36,911 nucleotides of DNA from a virus (Duplodnaviria; Heunggongvirae; Uroviricota; Caudoviricetes): the IMG/VR virus record IMGVR_UViG_2531839667_000007, one strand, 5' to 3'. The position numbers and the translations under genes are program-made. The notes beneath the pieces are model-generated. The model searched no databases and was not told where the DNA came from. It saw only the letters and a program-made list of their open reading frames with translations. Below, one piece after another: positions 1,281-18,520 of this stretch; the stretch's first letter is position 1, and each line of letters begins with the position of its first letter.

Positions 1281-1848
1281 TATCGCGTCCTCAACAATGA
1301 ATTTTGTGATGCGGTGCCTGGTGCCTCCAGGTGACGTTAACCAGTTAACAATTAACGCCGGATACAGAGAATCCACCCATAACACTGTTTTTGGTTTTAA
1401 CTGTTCCGCGTGCGCTCAGCCGCATTCACCACATCACAAAATTCACTTTAAAAAGGGCGGCAGAGCAGTCACGGAGTAAAACTGATACCGCCAAACGTCA
1501 CCAGAAAATTGATAACAGAGGGCGTTGCAGCGGGGTTGTCACTTAAGCGTATGGTCAACCTGACAACCCGGTGTCCTCAACGGGGGAAGGAATAACCCCG
1601 CCATACTTACCGCCGCGCCATTTCGCGGATTGCCACAACCGGAAGCGCACGGTCGACGAAAATTTAACGACAGGCTATCTATGAACCAGCTACCTCGCCG
1701 TGCGCTTTCGCGTTATGGTCTGACTTTTCAGGGAAATATCCTTTCAGTAAACTGTCAATGCCGGATGCTCACCCGTGTCCGGCGCACGCACTCCACCTCA
1801 CCCGTGGAGAACTCCTTAATTACTAACCTTAGCTTTGTTGATTAGCTA

Positions 1849-2382: not shown

Positions 2383-2567
2383 GTTGACCTCATTTCCCCT
2401 TAACGCCGGGGTAGCGGAACAAAAACCTGCTGCATAGTTATTAAAGTTGAACCCTGCCGTCATGTTCTTACGCCTCGGGCTGGCTACTTAACCCCTGACC
2501 ACTGCCTGGTAACTCGAAGTATTGCCCTGCGTTCTGCGGGACGGGGTGGGTTGGTATGAAAGGAAGG

Positions 2568-2606
2568 ATACCCACGGGTATTTAAAAAGTAAATACCCGT
2601 GGGTAA
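2568..2606. promoter_or_regulatory. left operator region: two 14-bp palindromic sites ATACCCACGGGTAT (2568-2581) and ATACCCGTGGGTAA (2593-2606), candidate OL
   Basis: Near-perfect inverted repeats 25 bp centre to centre, just 3' of the repressor gene, matching two related sites on the other side of the repressor. Confidence 0.5.
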
Positions 2607-2648
2607 TTTTTTTGATGTGTCTTAACTGGTGACTGGTTGTTTGGTGAG

Positions 2649-3068
2649 TTATGATGCGTTTTGTGCTTTCTTTTTACGGATTTCTTCGTAGATCATATTG
2701 TAATACTGTTTTTTCTCTTCAAGAGTTTTTAATAAGTTATCCGCTTCACTTTCTGGCAGTTCGTCTAAGAGATCTAAAAAAATACGTTGTCGTGGCGTTA
2801 GAACCCTTGTTTCATAATTGGAGGCTGTGTTCGTTGATGATGAAACGATACCATCCATCCATCCCCGGGGTAACCCAAAGGACTCTTCTATAATCTCCAC
2901 CATATCATCAGCGATCCGTTTTTTTCCTTTTTTCCCCTCTGGGTACAACATTCTTGATACATAAGAAGGCTCGCGACCGATCTTTCTGGCCACGTTAACC
3001 GCTTTACCATCGCATTTCTCATCACGAATTTTGATGAGTTGTTGTCGTCTAAATTCATATTTGTCCAT
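2649..3068 (-). CDS. phage repressor (cI analogue), short HTH protein without LexA-like S24 peptidase domain
   Basis: 139 aa, HTH-like segment GKAVNVARKIGREPSYVSRMLY; divergent from cro-like gene; flanked by repeated operator-like sites. Confidence 0.75.
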   Translation of the reverse strand: MDKYEFRRQQLIKIRDEKCDGKAVNVARKIGREPSYVSRMLYPEGKKGKKRIADDMVEIIEESFGLPRGWMDGIVSSSTNTASNYETRVLTPRQRIFLDLLDELPESEADNLLKTLEEKKQYYNMIYEEIRKKKAQNAS

Positions 3069-3074
3069 AGGTAA

Positions 3075-3144
3075 ATAATAGATGCGATTACCGCAAGGTA
3101 AACAACCTAGGGGTATTGACTTTTGTTTACCTGTGGGTATTCTT
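3075..3144. promoter_or_regulatory. right operator/promoter region: sites ACCTAGGGGTAT (3105-3116) and ACCTGTGGGTAT (3129-3140); candidate PR -35 TTGACT (3116-3121) and -10 ATTCTT (3139-3144); candidate leaderless PRM with -10 TATTAT on minus strand (3075-3080)
   Basis: Operator-like repeats share ACCY-NN-GGGTAT core with the left sites; promoter hexamers read from sequence, not verified. Confidence 0.45.
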
Positions 3145-3168
3145 TACTGTGTTTACTAAGGAGTAGCT

Positions 3169-3450
3169 ATGGAAGAATTAAGAATATTTCTCAATTCTCT
3201 TTCGTCAGATGAACAGCGTATGTTTGCATGTGAGTGTGGTACTAGCATCGGTTATCTAAGAAAGGCATTGAGTAAAGGTCAAATCTTAGGGGCATCGTTA
3301 TGTGTCCTTATTGAGCGAGCCAGTAATGGTGAAGTTACACGTCAGCAACTAAGGCCTTTTGATTGGATGAATATTTGGCCCGAGCTGGAAGATACCAAAA
3401 CGTTAACACAACCACTTACTAGGAGCTTGATTCATGAAAATCAAGCATGA
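3169..3450 (+). CDS. Cro-like early regulator (YdaS-like HTH protein)
   Basis: 93 aa, divergent from repressor, AAGGAG SD 5 nt upstream; resemblance to Rac-prophage YdaS family is from recall. Confidence 0.65.
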   Translation: MEELRIFLNSLSSDEQRMFACECGTSIGYLRKALSKGQILGASLCVLIERASNGEVTRQQLRPFDWMNIWPELEDTKTLTQPLTRSLIHENQA

Positions 3451-3859
3451 ACACATCCGCATGGCGATGAATGCCTGGGCGCGTCCTGATGGCGAAAAAG
3501 TTCCAGCAGCTGGAATAACCCAGGCTTATTTTGAGTTGGGTATGACGTTTCCTGAACTGTATGACGACAGCCATCCGGAAGCCCTGGCTCGCAATACCCA
3601 GAAAATTTTCCGCTGGGTAGAGAAAGACACCCCTGATGCAGTTGAAAAAATTCAGGCGTTGTTACCAGCGATCGAAAAGGCAATGCCACCTTTGCTGGTG
3701 GCCAGAATGCGCAGCCACAGTTCAGCTTATTTTCGGGAGCTGGTGGAGACGCGGGAGCGATTGGTGAGAGACGCTGATGATTTTGTCGCAGTGGCAATCG
3801 CCGGTTTCAATCAGATGAACCGTGGTGGCCCGGCAGGAAATGCTGTGGCAGTACATTGA
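3434..3859 (+). CDS. YdaT-like protein (CII-position regulator of Rac-type prophages)
   Basis: 141 aa starting MKIKHEHI, as recalled for Rac YdaT; overlaps the cro-like gene end; AGGAG SD. Confidence 0.65.
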   Translation: MKIKHEHIRMAMNAWARPDGEKVPAAGITQAYFELGMTFPELYDDSHPEALARNTQKIFRWVEKDTPDAVEKIQALLPAIEKAMPPLLVARMRSHSSAYFRELVETRERLVRDADDFVAVAIAGFNQMNRGGPAGNAVAVH

Positions 3860-7076: not shown

Positions 7077-7252
7077 TGCTGCGGGTGCTTGAGGCTATCT
7101 GTCTCAGGCATGAACACCAAAAGGCAGATAGAGAAAAGCCCCAGTTAACATTACGCGTCCGGCAAGACGCTTAACATTAATCTGAGGCCATATCTATGCT
7201 CTACACACGTAGGTTAGCCTCTTACGTGCCGAAAGGCAAGGAGAAGCAGGCT

Positions 7253-7408
7253 ATGAAGCAGCAAAAGGCGATGCTTATCGCCCTGATCGTCATCTGTTTA
7301 ACCGTCATTGTGACGGCACTGGTAACGAGGAAAGACCTCTGCGAGGTACGACTCCGAACCGGCCAGACGGAGGTCGCTGTCTTCACAGCTTACGAACCTG
7401 AGGAGTAA
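7253..7408 (+). CDS. hok: Hok/Gef family type I toxin (51 aa)
   Basis: MKQQKAMLIALIVICLTVIVTALVTRKDLCEVRLRTGQTEVAVFTAYEPEE aligns with plasmid R1 Hok along its length; strong SD AAGGCAAGGAGAAG; in-frame upstream ATG at 7196. Confidence 0.8.
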   Translation: MKQQKAMLIALIVICLTVIVTALVTRKDLCEVRLRTGQTEVAVFTAYEPEE

Positions 7409-7478
7409 GAGACCAGGCGAGGGAGAAATCCCTCGCCACCTCTGATGAGTCAGGCATCCTCAACGCACCCGCACTTAA

Positions 7479-7503
7479 CCCGCTTCGGCGGGTTTTGTTT
7501 TTT
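7479..7503 (+). terminator. rho-independent terminator of the hok-like transcript
   Basis: CCCGC-TTCG-GCGGG hairpin followed by TTTTGTTTTTT. Confidence 0.6.
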
Positions 7504-7575
7504 CCTGGCATTCTGGTTTACAATTCGCACGTCAGCCTGAACACCTGACACCTGCTGCGCCAGCAGAGAAAACAG

Positions 7576-18061: not shown

Positions 18062-18520
18062 ATGCTTTCCGCGTTTATCGTTATTCTGCTGGTGGCCTGT
18101 GGTGCGCTGTGGATGGCAACAGACCATTACCGTGATAACGCGATTACCTACAAAGCGCAGCGCGATAACAAAGCCAGTGAACTGAAGCTGGCGAACGCAA
18201 CCATTACTGATATGCAGGTGCGCCAGCGCGATGTTGCTGCGCTCGATGCAAAATACTCGAGGGAATTAGCCGATGCGAGAGCTGAAAATGAAACTCTTCG
18301 CGCTGACGTTGCCGCTGGTCGTAAGCGCCTGCGGATCAACGCCACCTGTCCAGGCTCCGTGCGTGAAGCCCCCACCACCTCCGGCGTGGATAATGCAACC
18401 GGCCCCCGACTGGCAGACACCGCTGAACGGGATTATTTCATCCTCAGAGAACGGTTGATGACAATGCAGAAGCAGGTGGGAGGGGCGCAGGAATATATCC
18501 GCACTCAGTGTATTAACTAG
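18062..18520 (+). CDS. Rz: Rz i-spanin (alternative GTG start 18047)
   Basis: N-terminal TM then [32 protein letters not shown]... closely matching lambda Rz. Confidence 0.85.
18288..18458 (+). CDS. Rz1: Rz1 o-spanin lipoprotein, embedded in the +1 frame of Rz
   Basis: [17 protein letters not shown] has lipobox LVVSAC; proline-rich PPPPPAW; wholly inside Rz. Confidence 0.75.

What the first reader, a model, noticed from the sequence alone, without database searches (positions are those of the whole stretch)
2568..3144. Immunity region with a repressor lacking an autocleavage domain and four related operator palindromes
The repressor is only 139 aa with an HTH and no LexA-like S24 peptidase domain, so RecA-stimulated self-cleavage is unlikely; induction may depend on an antirepressor encoded elsewhere, as in Gifsy-type phages. 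Four sites share the core ACCY-NN-GGGTAT: two perfect 14-bp palindromes 3' of the repressor (2568-2581, 2593-2606) and two between repressor and cro-like gene (3105-3116, 3129-3140), the latter overlapping candidate PR and PRM hexamers. The cI transcript appears leaderless.
Basis: partly seen in the sequence, partly recalled or inferred. Interest (0 to 1): 0.5.

Follow-up and report, generated by a model that had tools for sequence, protein, structure and literature searches.

The report
Prophage immunity switch, non-cleavable repressor
This is the lysis–lysogeny control region of an E. coli lambda-like prophage; its short repressor has the DNA-binding head of self-cleaving repressors but a different tail, so it is an ordinary, uncharacterised member of a known class.

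Summary
The motif ACCYNNGGGTAT matches 5 times at 4 sites against 0.12 expected. The 139-aa repressor (2649-3068, minus strand) has no S24 peptidase domain and no Ala-Gly site, and its model is all-helical.

The operator is better written WTACC-N4-GGTAW. The left pair brackets a leftward promoter built like PR. Nine related loci and phage mEp043 keep this layout, including a PRM -10 ending 6-7 nt before the ATG, which supports a leaderless transcript.

The repressor is a domain chimera:
- Residues 1-74 are 85% identical to 221-aa S24-type repressors.
- Residues 85-139 match the tails of DicA and of short repressors in phages Tritos and 666R9.

The Gifsy-type induction idea is plausible by family but unsupported here. 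No Rem, GftA, DinI or IrsA homologue is in the window, and the slot that holds such genes in relatives is empty. The one strong LexA-like box sits at the 5' end of a DNA methyltransferase gene.

Verdict: a new member of a known kind, of modest interest.

The parts
2649..3068 (-). Repressor gene (CI analogue), 139 aa. Residues 1-74 (nt 2847-3068) form the helix-turn-helix DNA-binding domain. Residues about 75-87 are a disordered linker. Residues about 88-139 (nt 2652-2807) form a two-helix DicA-type C-terminal domain.
   Evidence: ORF. No Pfam hit. PHROG 5736 'transcriptional regulator', E 4.7e-70. Residues 84-136 match NCBIfam DicA. hhalign to DicA gives 97% probability. AlphaFold model with alignment has pLDDT 81.8 and is all-helical. 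Foldseek top hits are the SPC32H repressor and XRE-type helix-turn-helix proteins. Residues 1-74 are 85% identical to the S24-type repressor P0054.
3127..3140 (.). Operator OR1, TTACCTGTGGGTAT. It overlaps the PR -10.
   Evidence: Half-site columns are invariant in the 9-locus alignment.
3103..3116 (.). Operator OR2, CAACCTAGGGGTAT. It has one strong half (GGGTAT) and one weak half, abuts the PR -35, and lies just upstream of the PRM -35, centred near -42.
   Evidence: CAATACC is invariant in 9 loci while the other half varies.
3088..3101 (.). Operator OR3, TTACCGCAAGGTAA.
   Evidence: TTTACC-N4-GGT is invariant in 9 loci.
3116..3143 (+). Promoter PR: TTGACT, 16 nt, TATTCT. It drives the cro-like (ydaS-type) and cII-like (ydaT-type) genes and the replication genes.
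   Evidence: Promoter scan, 9 of 12 matches. The same geometry is seen in the related loci.
3075..3102 (-). Promoter PRM: TTTACC, 16 nt, TATTAT. The -10 ends 6 nt before the A of the ATG at 3068, which predicts a leaderless repressor mRNA.
   Evidence: Promoter scan, 9 of 12 matches. All ten loci keep TTTACC, then 16-17 nt, a -10 hexamer, and 6-7 nt before the ATG.
2593..2606 (.). Left operator, upstream site. It reads TTACCCACGGGTAT on the minus strand and abuts the PL -35.
2568..2581 (.). Left operator, downstream site. It reads ATACCCGTGGGTAT on the minus strand and overlaps the PL -10.
2565..2593 (-). Inferred promoter PL: TTTACT (2588-2593), 17 nt, TATCCT (2565-2570). It would drive the ydfA-dicF-dicB-exonuclease operon and corresponds to dicBp of Qin.
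   Evidence: It aligns base for base with PR and with the PL regions of 8 related loci. At 8 of 12 matches it was not called by the consensus scan.
2569..2605 (.). Perfect 16-bp inverted repeat with a 5-nt loop, formed by the two left operators. It is followed by TCCTTCCTTT on the minus strand and by ATTTTTTT on the plus strand. It is a possible terminator of the repressor transcript.
   Evidence: The RNA fold is -27.1 kcal/mol, z = -7.4. In L019 a G:C to A:T change on both arms keeps the stem.
3169..3450 (+). Cro analogue, 93 aa, YdaS-like.
   Evidence: Pfam YdaS_toxin E 9.3e-6, below the curated cut-off. PHROG 35. It is 58-89% identical to the Cro proteins of the nine loci that share the operators.
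3434..3859 (+). CII analogue, 141 aa, YdaT family.
   Evidence: Pfam YdaT_toxin E 7.3e-10. PHROG 163 'CII-like transcriptional activator'. YdaT is described as a CII analogue in PMC8630535.
2227..2382 (-). ydfA (DUF1391), the first gene of the leftward operon.
   Evidence: Pfam DUF1391 E 7.5e-27. RefSeq annotation of the 99.9% identical prophage. DicF RNA lies downstream at 1455-1506(-).

Best explanation
Window 2559-3421 is the immunity cassette of an E. coli lambdoid prophage with Qin-like flanks.

Its 139-aa repressor has three parts:
- a lambda-repressor-like helix-turn-helix domain (residues 1-74);
- a flexible linker;
- a two-helix DicA-type tail.

It has no S24 peptidase.

It most likely binds, as a dimer, to 14-bp operators of the form WTACC-N4-GGTAW. 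(Binding itself is inferred, not shown.)

At the right operator:
- OR1 (3127-3140) and OR2 (3103-3116) cover the -10 and -35 of PR. This would shut off the cro-like (ydaS), cII-like (ydaT) and replication genes.
- OR3 (3088-3101) overlaps the -35 of PRM, which allows negative autoregulation.
- OR2 sits just upstream of the PRM -35, the position from which lambda CI activates PRM.
- PRM starts transcription at or next to the ATG, so the repressor mRNA is leaderless.

At the left operator, two sites (2593-2606 and 2568-2581) flank the -35 and cover the -10 of PL. This would silence the ydfA-dicF-dicB-exonuclease operon.

The repressor cannot cleave itself, so RecA cannot inactivate it directly. 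Derepression must come from an antirepressor supplied in trans, for example a Rem-type protein from a co-resident prophage. Alternatively, it could come from Cro-driven or stress-driven flipping of the bistable switch.

Shown here: the sequence anatomy, its statistics, its conservation across loci, and the domain composition. Inferred: DNA binding, promoter activity, the leaderless start, and the induction route.
For: Motif enrichment:
- ACCYNNGGGTAT gives 5 matches against 0.12 expected.
- WTACCNNNNGGTAW gives 4 against 0.09.

Conservation across loci:
- Related loci were examined from E. coli, Salmonella, Yersinia, Serratia, Pantoea, a metagenome and phage mEp043.
- The full motif occurs only at OR and as a distal pair. 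In most loci the OR sites lie about -72 and -33 from the ATG.
- Where a distal pair is found, its sites are 25-26 bp apart and lie 462-4280 bp downstream.
- In the 9-locus alignment the invariant columns fall mainly on the operator half-sites.

Promoters:
- PR and PRM were called by the scan.
- PL aligns with PR and with the PL regions of related loci.
- The PRM -10 ends 6-7 nt before the conserved ATGGA(C/T)AAA in all ten loci.

Domain composition:
- Residues 1-74 are 85% identical to the 221-aa S24 repressor P0054, and identity stops at residue 74.
- 80 of the 120 listed homologue clusters are at least 200 aa, and 71 of those carry G[DN]SM.
- The recognition helix REPSYVSRMLY is identical in 88 of 120.
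- The C-terminal tail aligns with DicA at 97% hhalign probability, E 8.7e-11.
- By my reading of the printed sequences it is about 78% identical to the tails of the 666R9 and Tritos repressors. Those carry a different DNA-binding domain and different operators.
- The AlphaFold model has pLDDT 81.8 and is all-helical.
- Fold hits are XRE-type helix-turn-helix proteins and the SPC32H repressor.

Co-inheritance: Cro is 58-89% identical in the nine other loci that share the operators.

Literature:
- DicA (135 aa, non-cleavable) represses dicBp and is antagonised by Rem (PMC10448788).
- Gifsy repressors of 136 aa are inactivated by LexA-controlled antirepressors (PMC3121763).
- In CP-933P, a leaderless short CI analogue works with YdaS and YdaT as Cro and CII analogues (PMC8630535).
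Against: - No binding, transcription-start or induction data exist for this locus.
- PL scores only 8 of 12 against consensus and was not called by the scan.
- OR2 has only one conserved half. That half overlaps the PR -35, so its conservation may partly reflect the promoter.
- No antirepressor gene was found in the window.
- No LexA box precedes a small ORF.
- Tritos and 666R9, which carry the same tail, have no LexA box scoring 15 or more. An SOS-linked antirepressor is therefore not a general property of this tail.
- In O157 Sakai, lambdoid prophages whose repressors lack the peptidase domain (Sp6, Sp9, Sp10) were not mitomycin-inducible (PMC2669165).
- The integrase of the 99.9% identical prophage in strain DEC5B is frameshifted, so the element may be defective.
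Confidence: 0.8

Rival explanations
1. The left pair (2568-2606) is mainly an intrinsic, possibly bidirectional, transcription terminator rather than a pair of operators. The hairpin would stop repressor-gene transcripts, or antisense transcripts, and its likeness to the right-hand sites would be incidental.
For: - The stem is a perfect 16 bp with a 5-nt loop, and the scan called it terminator-like on both strands.
- The RNA fold is -27.1 kcal/mol, z = -7.4.
- A T7 run follows on the plus strand.
- No other hairpin is evident between the repressor stop codon at 2649 and PL.
- L019 carries a compensatory change on both arms that keeps the stem.
- mEp043 has a separate canonical terminator upstream of its left operators, which suggests a terminator is needed at this position.
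Against: - The same pair of WTACC-N4-GGTAW sites, 25-26 bp apart and bracketing a -35 and -10, is present in 7 other loci. There the loop is 11-13 nt and no T-run follows. The conserved property is therefore the operator and promoter layout.
- The pair aligns base for base with PR and its operators.
- The tail on the repressor-sense strand, UCCUUCCUUUC, is a weak U-tract.
- No plus-strand gene lies upstream that would need the T7 terminator.
- The two roles do not exclude each other. My estimate that the hairpin also terminates repressor transcripts is about 0.3.
Confidence: 0.1
2. Gifsy-type model in cis: the prophage itself carries a LexA-repressed small antirepressor that binds the repressor after DNA damage.
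For: - The repressor belongs to the short non-cleavable class (PMC3121763, PMC10448788).
- The window has one LexA-like box as strong as the functional Gifsy-2 dinI box, scoring 24.2 against 23.9.
Against: - That box lies at codons 3-9 of a 349-aa N6/N4 DNA methyltransferase, and no small ORF follows it.
- tblastn finds no GftA, DinI, IrsA or Rem homologue in the window at E up to 10, while a Rem homologue is readily found in the neighbouring prophage of strain DEC5B.
- The slot between hokD and the 90-aa ORF holds rem in Qin and dinI-gftA-irsA in Gifsy-2. Here it is 167 bp of terminator-like sequence.
- RefSeq annotation of the near-identical prophage lists no antirepressor, Rha, Bro or KilA gene.
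- A novel antirepressor without detectable homology cannot be excluded.
Confidence: 0.1
3. The region is a locked remnant. The repressor serves only to silence the toxic dicBF-type operon and give immunity, with no dedicated induction pathway. Any switching would be stochastic or stress-driven through the Cro analogue.
For: - DicA-repressed dicBp switches on spontaneously in about 1% of cells, and with urea or heat, independently of RecA and Rem but dependent on DicC (PMC10448788).
- CP-933P shows heritable bistability (PMC8630535).
- Short-repressor prophages Sp6, Sp9 and Sp10 are not mitomycin-inducible (PMC2669165).
- The integrase is frameshifted in strain DEC5B.
- Frameshifted copies of this repressor occur in other E. 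coli genomes.
Against: - The structural and lysis genes across the 36.9-kb window look largely intact.
- The cassette is kept at 97-99.8% identity in 813 E. coli genomes.
- Virion-forming phages Tritos and 666R9 use the same tail. The tail is therefore compatible with a full lytic cycle.
Confidence: 0.3

Closest known systems
DicA / DicC / dicBp of the Qin cryptic prophage (E. coli K-12), with the Rem antirepressor (Ragunathan et al. 2023, PMC10448788)
   Same: - The gene order matches: repressor, then promoter, then ydfA-ydfB-ydfC-dicF-dicB on one strand, with a divergent cro-like gene.
- The repressor is similar in size (135 against 139 aa), with no S24 domain and no Ala-Gly site.
- The C-terminal tails are homologous: hhalign 97% probability, and 33% identity over 46 aa.
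- By my reading of the Qin sequence, the operators there also look like 14-bp 5-4-5 sites, TTAGY-N4-RCTAA.
   Different: - The DNA-binding domain is unrelated in sequence. DicA has a Pfam-type HTH_3 domain, while this one matches no Pfam family.
- The operator sequence differs.
- The window has no rem gene.
- Here the left operators themselves form the only hairpin between the repressor gene and the promoter. Qin has a separate stem-loop there.
Gifsy-1/-2/-3 repressors (GfoR, GtgR, GfhR) and their LexA-controlled antirepressors (Lemire et al. 2011, PMC3121763)
   Same: - The repressors are short (136-138 aa), are not cleaved, and sit in a lambdoid immunity region.
- The C-terminal LPE-type motif is weakly similar: hhalign 79% probability, E 1.5e-5.
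   Different: - There is no dinI-antirepressor-irsA module, and no LexA box in the equivalent region downstream of the replication genes.
- The DNA-binding domains are not related by sequence.
cI of coliphage mEp043 and the S24-type 'LexA family' repressors of Salmonella, Yersinia, Pantoea, Edwardsiella and Klebsiella prophages
   Same: - The DNA-binding domain is shared: 65-85% identity over residues 1-74/86, with an identical recognition helix.
- Cro, the three-site right operator, the two-site left operator and the PRM geometry are also shared.
- I predict the same immunity specificity.
   Different: Those proteins are 219-242 aa and carry a Peptidase_S24 domain with an Ala/Cys-Gly site and a GDSM serine. 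They should be RecA-cleavable; this one cannot be.
PaaR2 / YdaS / YdaT immunity region of cryptic prophage CP-933P (Jurenas et al. 2021, PMC8630535)
   Same: - A short CI analogue is expressed from a leaderless transcript, shown there by 5' RACE.
- YdaS-type Cro and YdaT-type CII analogues are divergently transcribed.
- Operators overlap PR and PRM, and there is a PL promoter.
   Different: - PaaR2 appears to be a different protein: it begins MQKKE according to the paper, but I made no direct sequence comparison.
- It is followed by a toxin-antitoxin pair.
- Its repeats are 18 bp with the consensus GTTTAGTAA.
Rep-Ant of Salmonella phage SPC32H (PDB 5D50 and 5D4Z)
   Same: It is the best structural match to the model: Foldseek E 1.1e-3, probability 1.00. 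It is also a repressor inactivated by an antirepressor rather than by cleavage.
   Different: The match is weak (TM 0.39-0.48, 16-23% identity). No Ant homologue is present in the window.

Membership tests
Lambda/P22-type CI repressor (helix-turn-helix plus S24 autopeptidase) | N-terminal lambda-repressor-like helix-turn-helix DNA-binding domain | tested here: met
   The AlphaFold model has four helices in residues 3-63. Foldseek hits are to C.BclI, C.Esp1396I, SinR, HigA and the 434 repressor, with probability 0.85-0.99 and rmsd 2.2-3.4 A over about 66-71 columns for the controller proteins. No Pfam helix-turn-helix family is matched.
Lambda/P22-type CI repressor (helix-turn-helix plus S24 autopeptidase) | C-terminal Peptidase_S24 domain with a Ser/Lys dyad | tested here: not met
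   No PF00717 hit. The C-terminal region is modelled as two helices at pLDDT about 90. There is no G[DN]SM motif.
Lambda/P22-type CI repressor (helix-turn-helix plus S24 autopeptidase) | Ala-Gly or Cys-Gly cleavage site in the linker | tested here: not met
   The protein contains no AG or CG dipeptide anywhere. By contrast, 77 of the 80 long homologues have one between residues 75 and 125.
Short non-cleavable lambdoid repressors controlled by antirepressors (DicA, GtgR/GfoR class) | Size of about 135-150 aa with no peptidase domain | tested here: met
   The protein is 139 aa.
Short non-cleavable lambdoid repressors controlled by antirepressors (DicA, GtgR/GfoR class) | C-terminal region homologous to that of DicA or GtgR | tested here: met
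   NCBIfam DicA matches residues 84-136, E 2.5e-5, below the curated cut-off. BLASTP gives 33% identity over 46 aa, E 1e-7. hhalign probability is 97% to DicA and 79% to GtgR.
Short non-cleavable lambdoid repressors controlled by antirepressors (DicA, GtgR/GfoR class) | Cognate antirepressor gene in the same prophage (rem, gfoA/gftA, tum or antC type) | tested here: not met
   tblastn with Rem, GftA, DinI and IrsA finds nothing in the window at E up to 10. The hokD-to-DUF968 slot is empty. No antirepressor is annotated in the near-identical prophage. Tum and AntC were not used as queries. A non-homologous antirepressor is not excluded.
Short non-cleavable lambdoid repressors controlled by antirepressors (DicA, GtgR/GfoR class) | LexA box controlling the antirepressor operon | tested here: not met
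   The scoring matrix was built from LexA boxes recalled from my own knowledge and checked on the Gifsy-2 dinI box (score 23.9). It finds one strong site in the window, at 10412-10431 (score 24.2), at the start of a DNA methyltransferase gene and not before a small ORF.
Short non-cleavable lambdoid repressors controlled by antirepressors (DicA, GtgR/GfoR class) | Repressor is released from DNA on binding the antirepressor and is not cleaved on induction | not testable with these tools
   This needs EMSA or pull-down assays and western blots after mitomycin C treatment.
Lambdoid immunity region architecture | Divergent PR and PRM promoters with multiple operators between the repressor and cro genes | tested here: met
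   Both promoters were called. Three sites lie at 3088-3140 and are conserved in the related loci.
Lambdoid immunity region architecture | Second operator set overlapping a leftward early promoter (OL/PL) | tested here: met
   Two sites at 2568-2606 bracket TTTACT, 17 nt, TATCCT. This arrangement aligns with PR and with the PL regions of 8 related loci. Promoter activity has not been shown.
Lambdoid immunity region architecture | Leaderless repressor transcript from PRM | tested here: inconclusive
   The geometry is conserved in all ten loci: the -10 ends 6-7 nt before the ATG, and most loci have no Shine-Dalgarno sequence. The transcript start itself needs 5' RACE.
Rho-independent terminator (for the hairpin at 2569-2605) | G+C-rich stem, short loop, and a U-tract directly after the stem on the transcribed strand | tested here: inconclusive
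   The stem and loop criteria are met: 16 bp with 7 G-C pairs, a 5-nt loop, and -27.1 kcal/mol. On the repressor-sense strand the tail is UCCUUCCUUU, which is weak. The clean U7 run is on the opposite strand.

The most novel reading that the evidence does not exclude
This prophage is blind to the SOS response on its own and sits low in an induction hierarchy between prophages.

- A domain swap replaced the S24 tail of an mEp043-type repressor with a DicA-type tail.
- The usual antirepressor slot is empty, so the prophage could be derepressed only by a Rem-type antirepressor from a co-resident prophage.
- In strain DEC5B such a prophage lies in tandem next to it and carries DicA and Rem homologues.
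- In addition, the two left operators would double, as RNA, as the terminator that keeps repressor transcripts out of the toxic dicBF-type operon.
Probability: 0.15. Interest if true: 0.55.

Novelty: new member of a known kind. Interest (0 to 1): 0.3.

Why it matters
This cassette is present in at least 813 of 5426 complete E. coli genomes. RefSeq annotates its repressor only as 'hypothetical protein'.

The analysis gives it an operator consensus, a promoter map and an immunity group shared with phage mEp043.

It also offers a natural experiment. The same DNA-binding head, Cro and operators occur with either a RecA-cleavable tail or a DicA-type tail. Comparing such pairs would show how the choice of tail sets prophage inducibility and cross-talk in strains with many prophages, such as EHEC. 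The conceptual framework is already established by work on Gifsy, Qin and CP-933P.

Tried and rejected
- **Pfam and PDB sequence searches of the repressor** found no family. The only PDB sequence hits were chance-level matches to the ADAR Z-alpha domain, E 0.075.
- **Single-sequence AlphaFold** gave a poor model, pLDDT 52. It was replaced by a model built from a 13-sequence alignment.
- **The strict LexA pattern CTGT-N8-ACAG** gave two G+C-rich matches that scored poorly, at 18107 and 32588. I set them aside in favour of a scoring-matrix scan.
- **The 90-aa ORF at 7576-7848**, in the rem position, was tested as a Rem homologue. BLASTP found no similarity. It is instead a conserved gene found just upstream of DUF968 or ninG in Qin, Tritos, Sp11 and Gifsy-2.
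- **Sakai prophage Sp11** was tested as the counterpart of this prophage. It is not: only the mosaic flanks match and the immunity region differs.
- **Several short 'homologues'** (P0005, P0009, P0013, P0016, P0017, P0019) turned out to be frameshifted copies and were left out of the structure alignment.
- **L011 (Klebsiella)** is a prophage remnant with only one site at each position, so it was not used.
- **One sequence in alignment A4 (L013)** was given wrong coordinates and should be ignored.
- **A third left-operator site** was looked for. Only isolated ATACC or TTACC half-sites lie downstream of PL, and they are not conserved.
Full report
**1. Checking the observation**

The region was read directly. 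All four reported sites are at the stated coordinates:
- 2570-2581, ACCCACGGGTAT;
- 2593-2604, the same motif read on the minus strand;
- 3105-3116, ACCTAGGGGTAT;
- 3129-3140, ACCTGTGGGTAT.

The pattern ACCYNNGGGTAT matches 5 times in the 36.9-kb window, all within this region. Dinucleotide-preserving shuffles give 0.12 +/- 0.36, and none reached 5.

The ORF at 2649-3068 on the minus strand encodes 139 aa. It matches no Pfam family, so it has no Peptidase_S24 domain.

Two details were overstated:
- The left sites are not perfect 14-bp palindromes. One is ATACCC-AC-GGGTAT and the other ATACCC-GT-GGGTAA.
- The two right-hand sites overlap the PR hexamers but not the PRM hexamers.

**2.

A motif defined by the symmetric ends, WTACC-N4-GGTAW, gives 4 hits against 0.09 expected. 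Two are the left sites and one is 3127-3140. The fourth is a new site at 3088-3101, TTACCGCAAGGTAA.

The right operator therefore has three sites:
- OR1 at 3127-3140;
- OR2 at 3103-3116, with one strong half and one weak half;
- OR3 at 3088-3101.

The promoter scan called PR as TTGACT, 16 nt, TATTCT (3116-3143). It called PRM on the other strand as TTTACC, 16 nt, TATTAT (3102-3075). The sites relate to these promoters as follows:
- OR1 overlaps the PR -10.
- OR2 abuts the PR -35 and lies immediately upstream of the PRM -35.
- OR3 overlaps the PRM -35.
- The PRM -10 ends 6 nt before the A of the ATG at 3068, and there is no Shine-Dalgarno sequence.

**3. The left pair is an operator-promoter unit built like PR**

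Read on the minus strand, 2609-2555 aligns base for base with PR: a site, then the -35 (TTTACT against TTGACT), then a site, then the -10 (TATCCT against TATTCT). This inferred PL faces ydfA (DUF1391), DicF RNA at 1455-1506, dicB and the exonuclease gene. It therefore corresponds to dicBp of Qin.

The consensus scan did not call PL, which matches only 8 of 12 positions. The assignment rests on this parallel and on the comparative data below.

**4. Comparative evidence**

The window is 99.9% identical over 14 kb to a prophage next to tRNA-Ser and mtfA in E. coli O55:H7 strain DEC5B. The 1.7-kb region is at least 80% covered in 813 of 5426 complete E. coli genomes.

A protein search with the repressor found two kinds of relatives:
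- full-length short relatives of 135-145 aa, 46-93% identical;
- a larger set of 219-242-aa 'LexA family' proteins carrying PF00717, which match only the first 53-73% of the query.

I fetched loci for nine relatives from E. coli, Salmonella, Yersinia, Serratia, Pantoea and a metagenome, together with phage mEp043. The results:
- In each 5-10-kb locus the full motif occurs only in two places. One is the repressor-cro intergenic region. The other is a distal position 462-4280 bp past the start codon, usually as a pair 25-26 bp apart. Where the gene is annotated, this distal site lies just upstream of an N-type antiterminator gene.
- In a 9-locus alignment of the right operator the invariant columns fall mainly on TACC..GGTA (OR1), CAATACC (the OR2 half plus the PR -35), TTTACC..GGT (OR3 plus the PRM -35) and the start codon.
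- All ten loci keep TTTACC, then 16-17 nt, then a -10 hexamer, then 6-7 nt before ATGGA(C/T)AAA. In Pantoea this holds once the start is moved to the conserved MDKYE codon.
- The Cro proteins of the nine other loci are 58-89% identical to the one in the window.

This is strong phylogenetic footprinting for five operators, three promoters and a leaderless repressor mRNA. A leaderless start has been shown experimentally for lambda cI and for paaR2 of CP-933P (PMC8630535). It has not been shown for this locus.

**5. The repressor is a domain chimera**

- Residues 1-74 are 85% identical to the 221-aa Salmonella S24 repressor P0054. Identity stops abruptly at GWMDGI.
- Residues 1-86 are 65% identical to the cI protein of the isolated coliphage mEp043, which is 228 aa and contains VKGDSMWP.
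- Of the 120 listed homologue clusters, 80 are at least 200 aa. Of these, 71 contain G[DN]SM and 77 have an Ala/Cys-Gly between residues 75 and 125. The window protein has neither feature.
- The recognition helix REPSYVSRMLY is identical in 88 of 120.
- Residues about 85-139 align with the DicA tail: NCBIfam E 2.5e-5, BLASTP 33% over 46 aa, and hhalign 97% probability.
- By my reading of the printed sequences, those residues are about 78% identical to the tails of the short repressors of phages 666R9 and Tritos. Those repressors have a different helix-turn-helix domain and visibly different operators at the same positions.
- With a 13-sequence alignment, AlphaFold gives pLDDT 81.8. The model has four helices (residues 3-63), a disordered linker (77-87) and two long helices (92-138), with no beta structure.
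- Foldseek against the PDB returns the SPC32H repressor (5D50 and 5D4Z) and then XRE-type helix-turn-helix proteins. All E-values are weak, at 1e-3 or higher, although the reported probabilities are high.

**6. Boundaries of the cassette**

Similarity to phages with other immunity types stops at about 2558 and resumes at about 3422. The first boundary is just downstream of the PL -10, where the shared leader ACCAACCCACCCC begins. The second is at the end of cro. The exchangeable unit therefore comprises the left operators and PL, the repressor, the right operators, and cro. Within that unit the repressor tail is a second exchangeable module.

**7. How induction might work**

RecA-stimulated self-cleavage can be set aside. 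For the antirepressor hypothesis I tested four things.

*Homologues of known small antirepressor modules.*
- tblastn with K-12 Rem and with Gifsy-2 GftA, DinI and IrsA finds nothing in the window at E up to 10.
- The same search finds a 74%-identical Rem and a 57%-identical DicA in the prophage lying in tandem with this one in DEC5B (L008 35469-35720 and 28876-29283).

*Position.*
- A 90-aa ORF at 7576-7848 has homologues just upstream of DUF968 or ninG in Qin, Tritos, the DEC5B neighbour, Sakai Sp11 and Gifsy-2.
- The slot before this ORF holds rem in Qin, dinI-gftA-irsA in Gifsy-2 and an ImmA/IrrE-like gene in Tritos.
- In the window that slot is 167 bp of terminator-like sequence after hokD.

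*LexA boxes.*
- I built a scoring matrix from E. coli LexA boxes recalled from my own knowledge. It recovers the functional Gifsy-2 dinI box at score 23.9 (PMC3121763).
- In the window it finds one site of equal strength, TACTGTAAAAATATCCAGTT at 10412-10431, scoring 24.2. The best score in 50 shuffles was 20.0.
- That site lies at codons 3-9 of a 349-aa N6/N4 DNA methyltransferase, not in front of a small ORF.
- Tritos and 666R9 have no site scoring 15 or more.

*Annotation.* RefSeq lists no Ant, Rha, Bro or KilA protein in the near-identical prophage.

Literature context:
- DicA is relieved by Rem, but also switches spontaneously and under urea or heat, independently of Rem and RecA (PMC10448788).
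- Gifsy antirepressors can act across prophages (PMC3121763).
- In O157 Sakai, lambdoid prophages whose repressors lack the peptidase domain were not mitomycin-inducible (PMC2669165).

My reading is as follows. The repressor is of the antirepressor-controlled class by family. This prophage carries no recognisable antirepressor of its own. Control in trans, or stochastic or stress-driven switching, are the live options.

**8. The hairpin**

The two left operators form a perfect 16-bp stem with a 5-nt loop. As RNA it folds at -27.1 kcal/mol, z = -7.4, and the scan called it terminator-like on both strands.

In favour of a terminator role for the repressor transcript:
- It is the only hairpin evident between the stop codon and PL.
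- mEp043 has a separate canonical terminator at that position.
- In the 92%-identical E. coli variant L019, a G-to-A change in one arm is matched by C-to-T in the other.

Against it:
- The U-tract on the repressor-sense strand is weak (UCCUUCCUUU).
- Related loci keep the operators without a terminator-like loop or tail.
- The paired change could equally reflect selection for two identical, inverted operators.

I treat a dual role as possible, at about 0.3. The operator role is the conserved one.

**9. Comparison with known systems, and verdict**

The region works like the Qin dicA/dicC/dicBp switch and the CP-933P PaaR2/YdaS/YdaT switch. It shares its DNA-recognition module with mEp043-type S24 repressors.

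It fails the defining tests for a lambda-type cleavable CI. It meets the size, domain and homology tests for the DicA/Gifsy class of short repressors. It does not meet the test of carrying a cognate LexA-controlled antirepressor in cis.

It is a new, uncharacterised member of a known kind. The useful additions are the operator consensus, the five-site map, the missed OR3 site, the empty antirepressor slot, and the natural swap between an S24 tail and a DicA-type tail on one DNA-binding head.

Noticed in passing
window 10412-10431: A strong LexA-box-like site, TACTGTAAAAATATCCAGTT, scores 24.2. The functional Gifsy-2 dinI box scores 23.9, and the best of 50 shuffles scored 20.0. It lies at codons 3-9 of an N6/N4 DNA methyltransferase gene (10404-11453, plus strand), downstream of the Q-like DUF1133 gene. 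This suggests an SOS-regulated prophage methyltransferase, or a miscalled start codon.
   Followed up: partly
window 7409-7575, with the ORF at 7576-7848: The gap between hokD and a conserved 90-aa ORF (phrog_1212) is only 167 bp. The same slot holds rem in Qin, dinI-gftA-irsA in Gifsy-2 and an ImmA/IrrE-like gene in phage Tritos. The 90-aa ORF has an unannotated 76%-identical homologue between rem and ydfU in K-12 (L009 4310-4585).
   Followed up: partly
L008 23190-37001 (strain DEC5B, next to the counterpart of the window prophage): A second lambdoid prophage lies in tandem with the first. It encodes homologues of DicA (57% identical), DicC (71%) and Rem (74%), and could be a source of a trans-acting antirepressor.
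   Followed up: partly
window 2888-3058 (-), alternative frame; proteins P0005, P0009, P0013, P0016, P0017 and P0019: Several E. coli genomes carry frameshifted copies of this repressor, whose N-terminus reads in the alternative frame (MNLDDNNSSKFVM...). The repressor is therefore inactivated in some lineages.
   Followed up: no
window 1455-1506 (-), 7083-7258 (+), 11829-12018 (+), 11503-11749 (+): Rfam finds DicF RNA, sok antitoxin RNA (next to hokD), the sRNA STnc100, and three tRNA genes downstream of the methyltransferase gene.
   Followed up: no
window 14384-15876: This segment is absent from the otherwise collinear DEC5B prophage. It carries minus-strand ORFs of 293 and 142 aa (14494-15375 and 15333-15761) and may be an insertion sequence in the lysis region.
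   Followed up: no
window 9908-9932 and 10234-10262: By eye, two terminator-like hairpins with T-runs flank a 65-aa ORF (10056-10253). The ORF matches phrog_331 and has a weak TrmB-like Pfam hit. It lies between the Q-like gene and the methyltransferase gene.
   Followed up: no
L014/L017 (phage vB_EcoS-666R9) and L016 (phage Tritos): Both virion-forming phages use a short repressor whose tail closely resembles the window's (about 78% identical by my reading), joined to a different DNA-binding domain and different operators. Neither genome has a LexA box scoring 15 or more, so how this tail is inactivated in active phages is unknown.
   Followed up: partly
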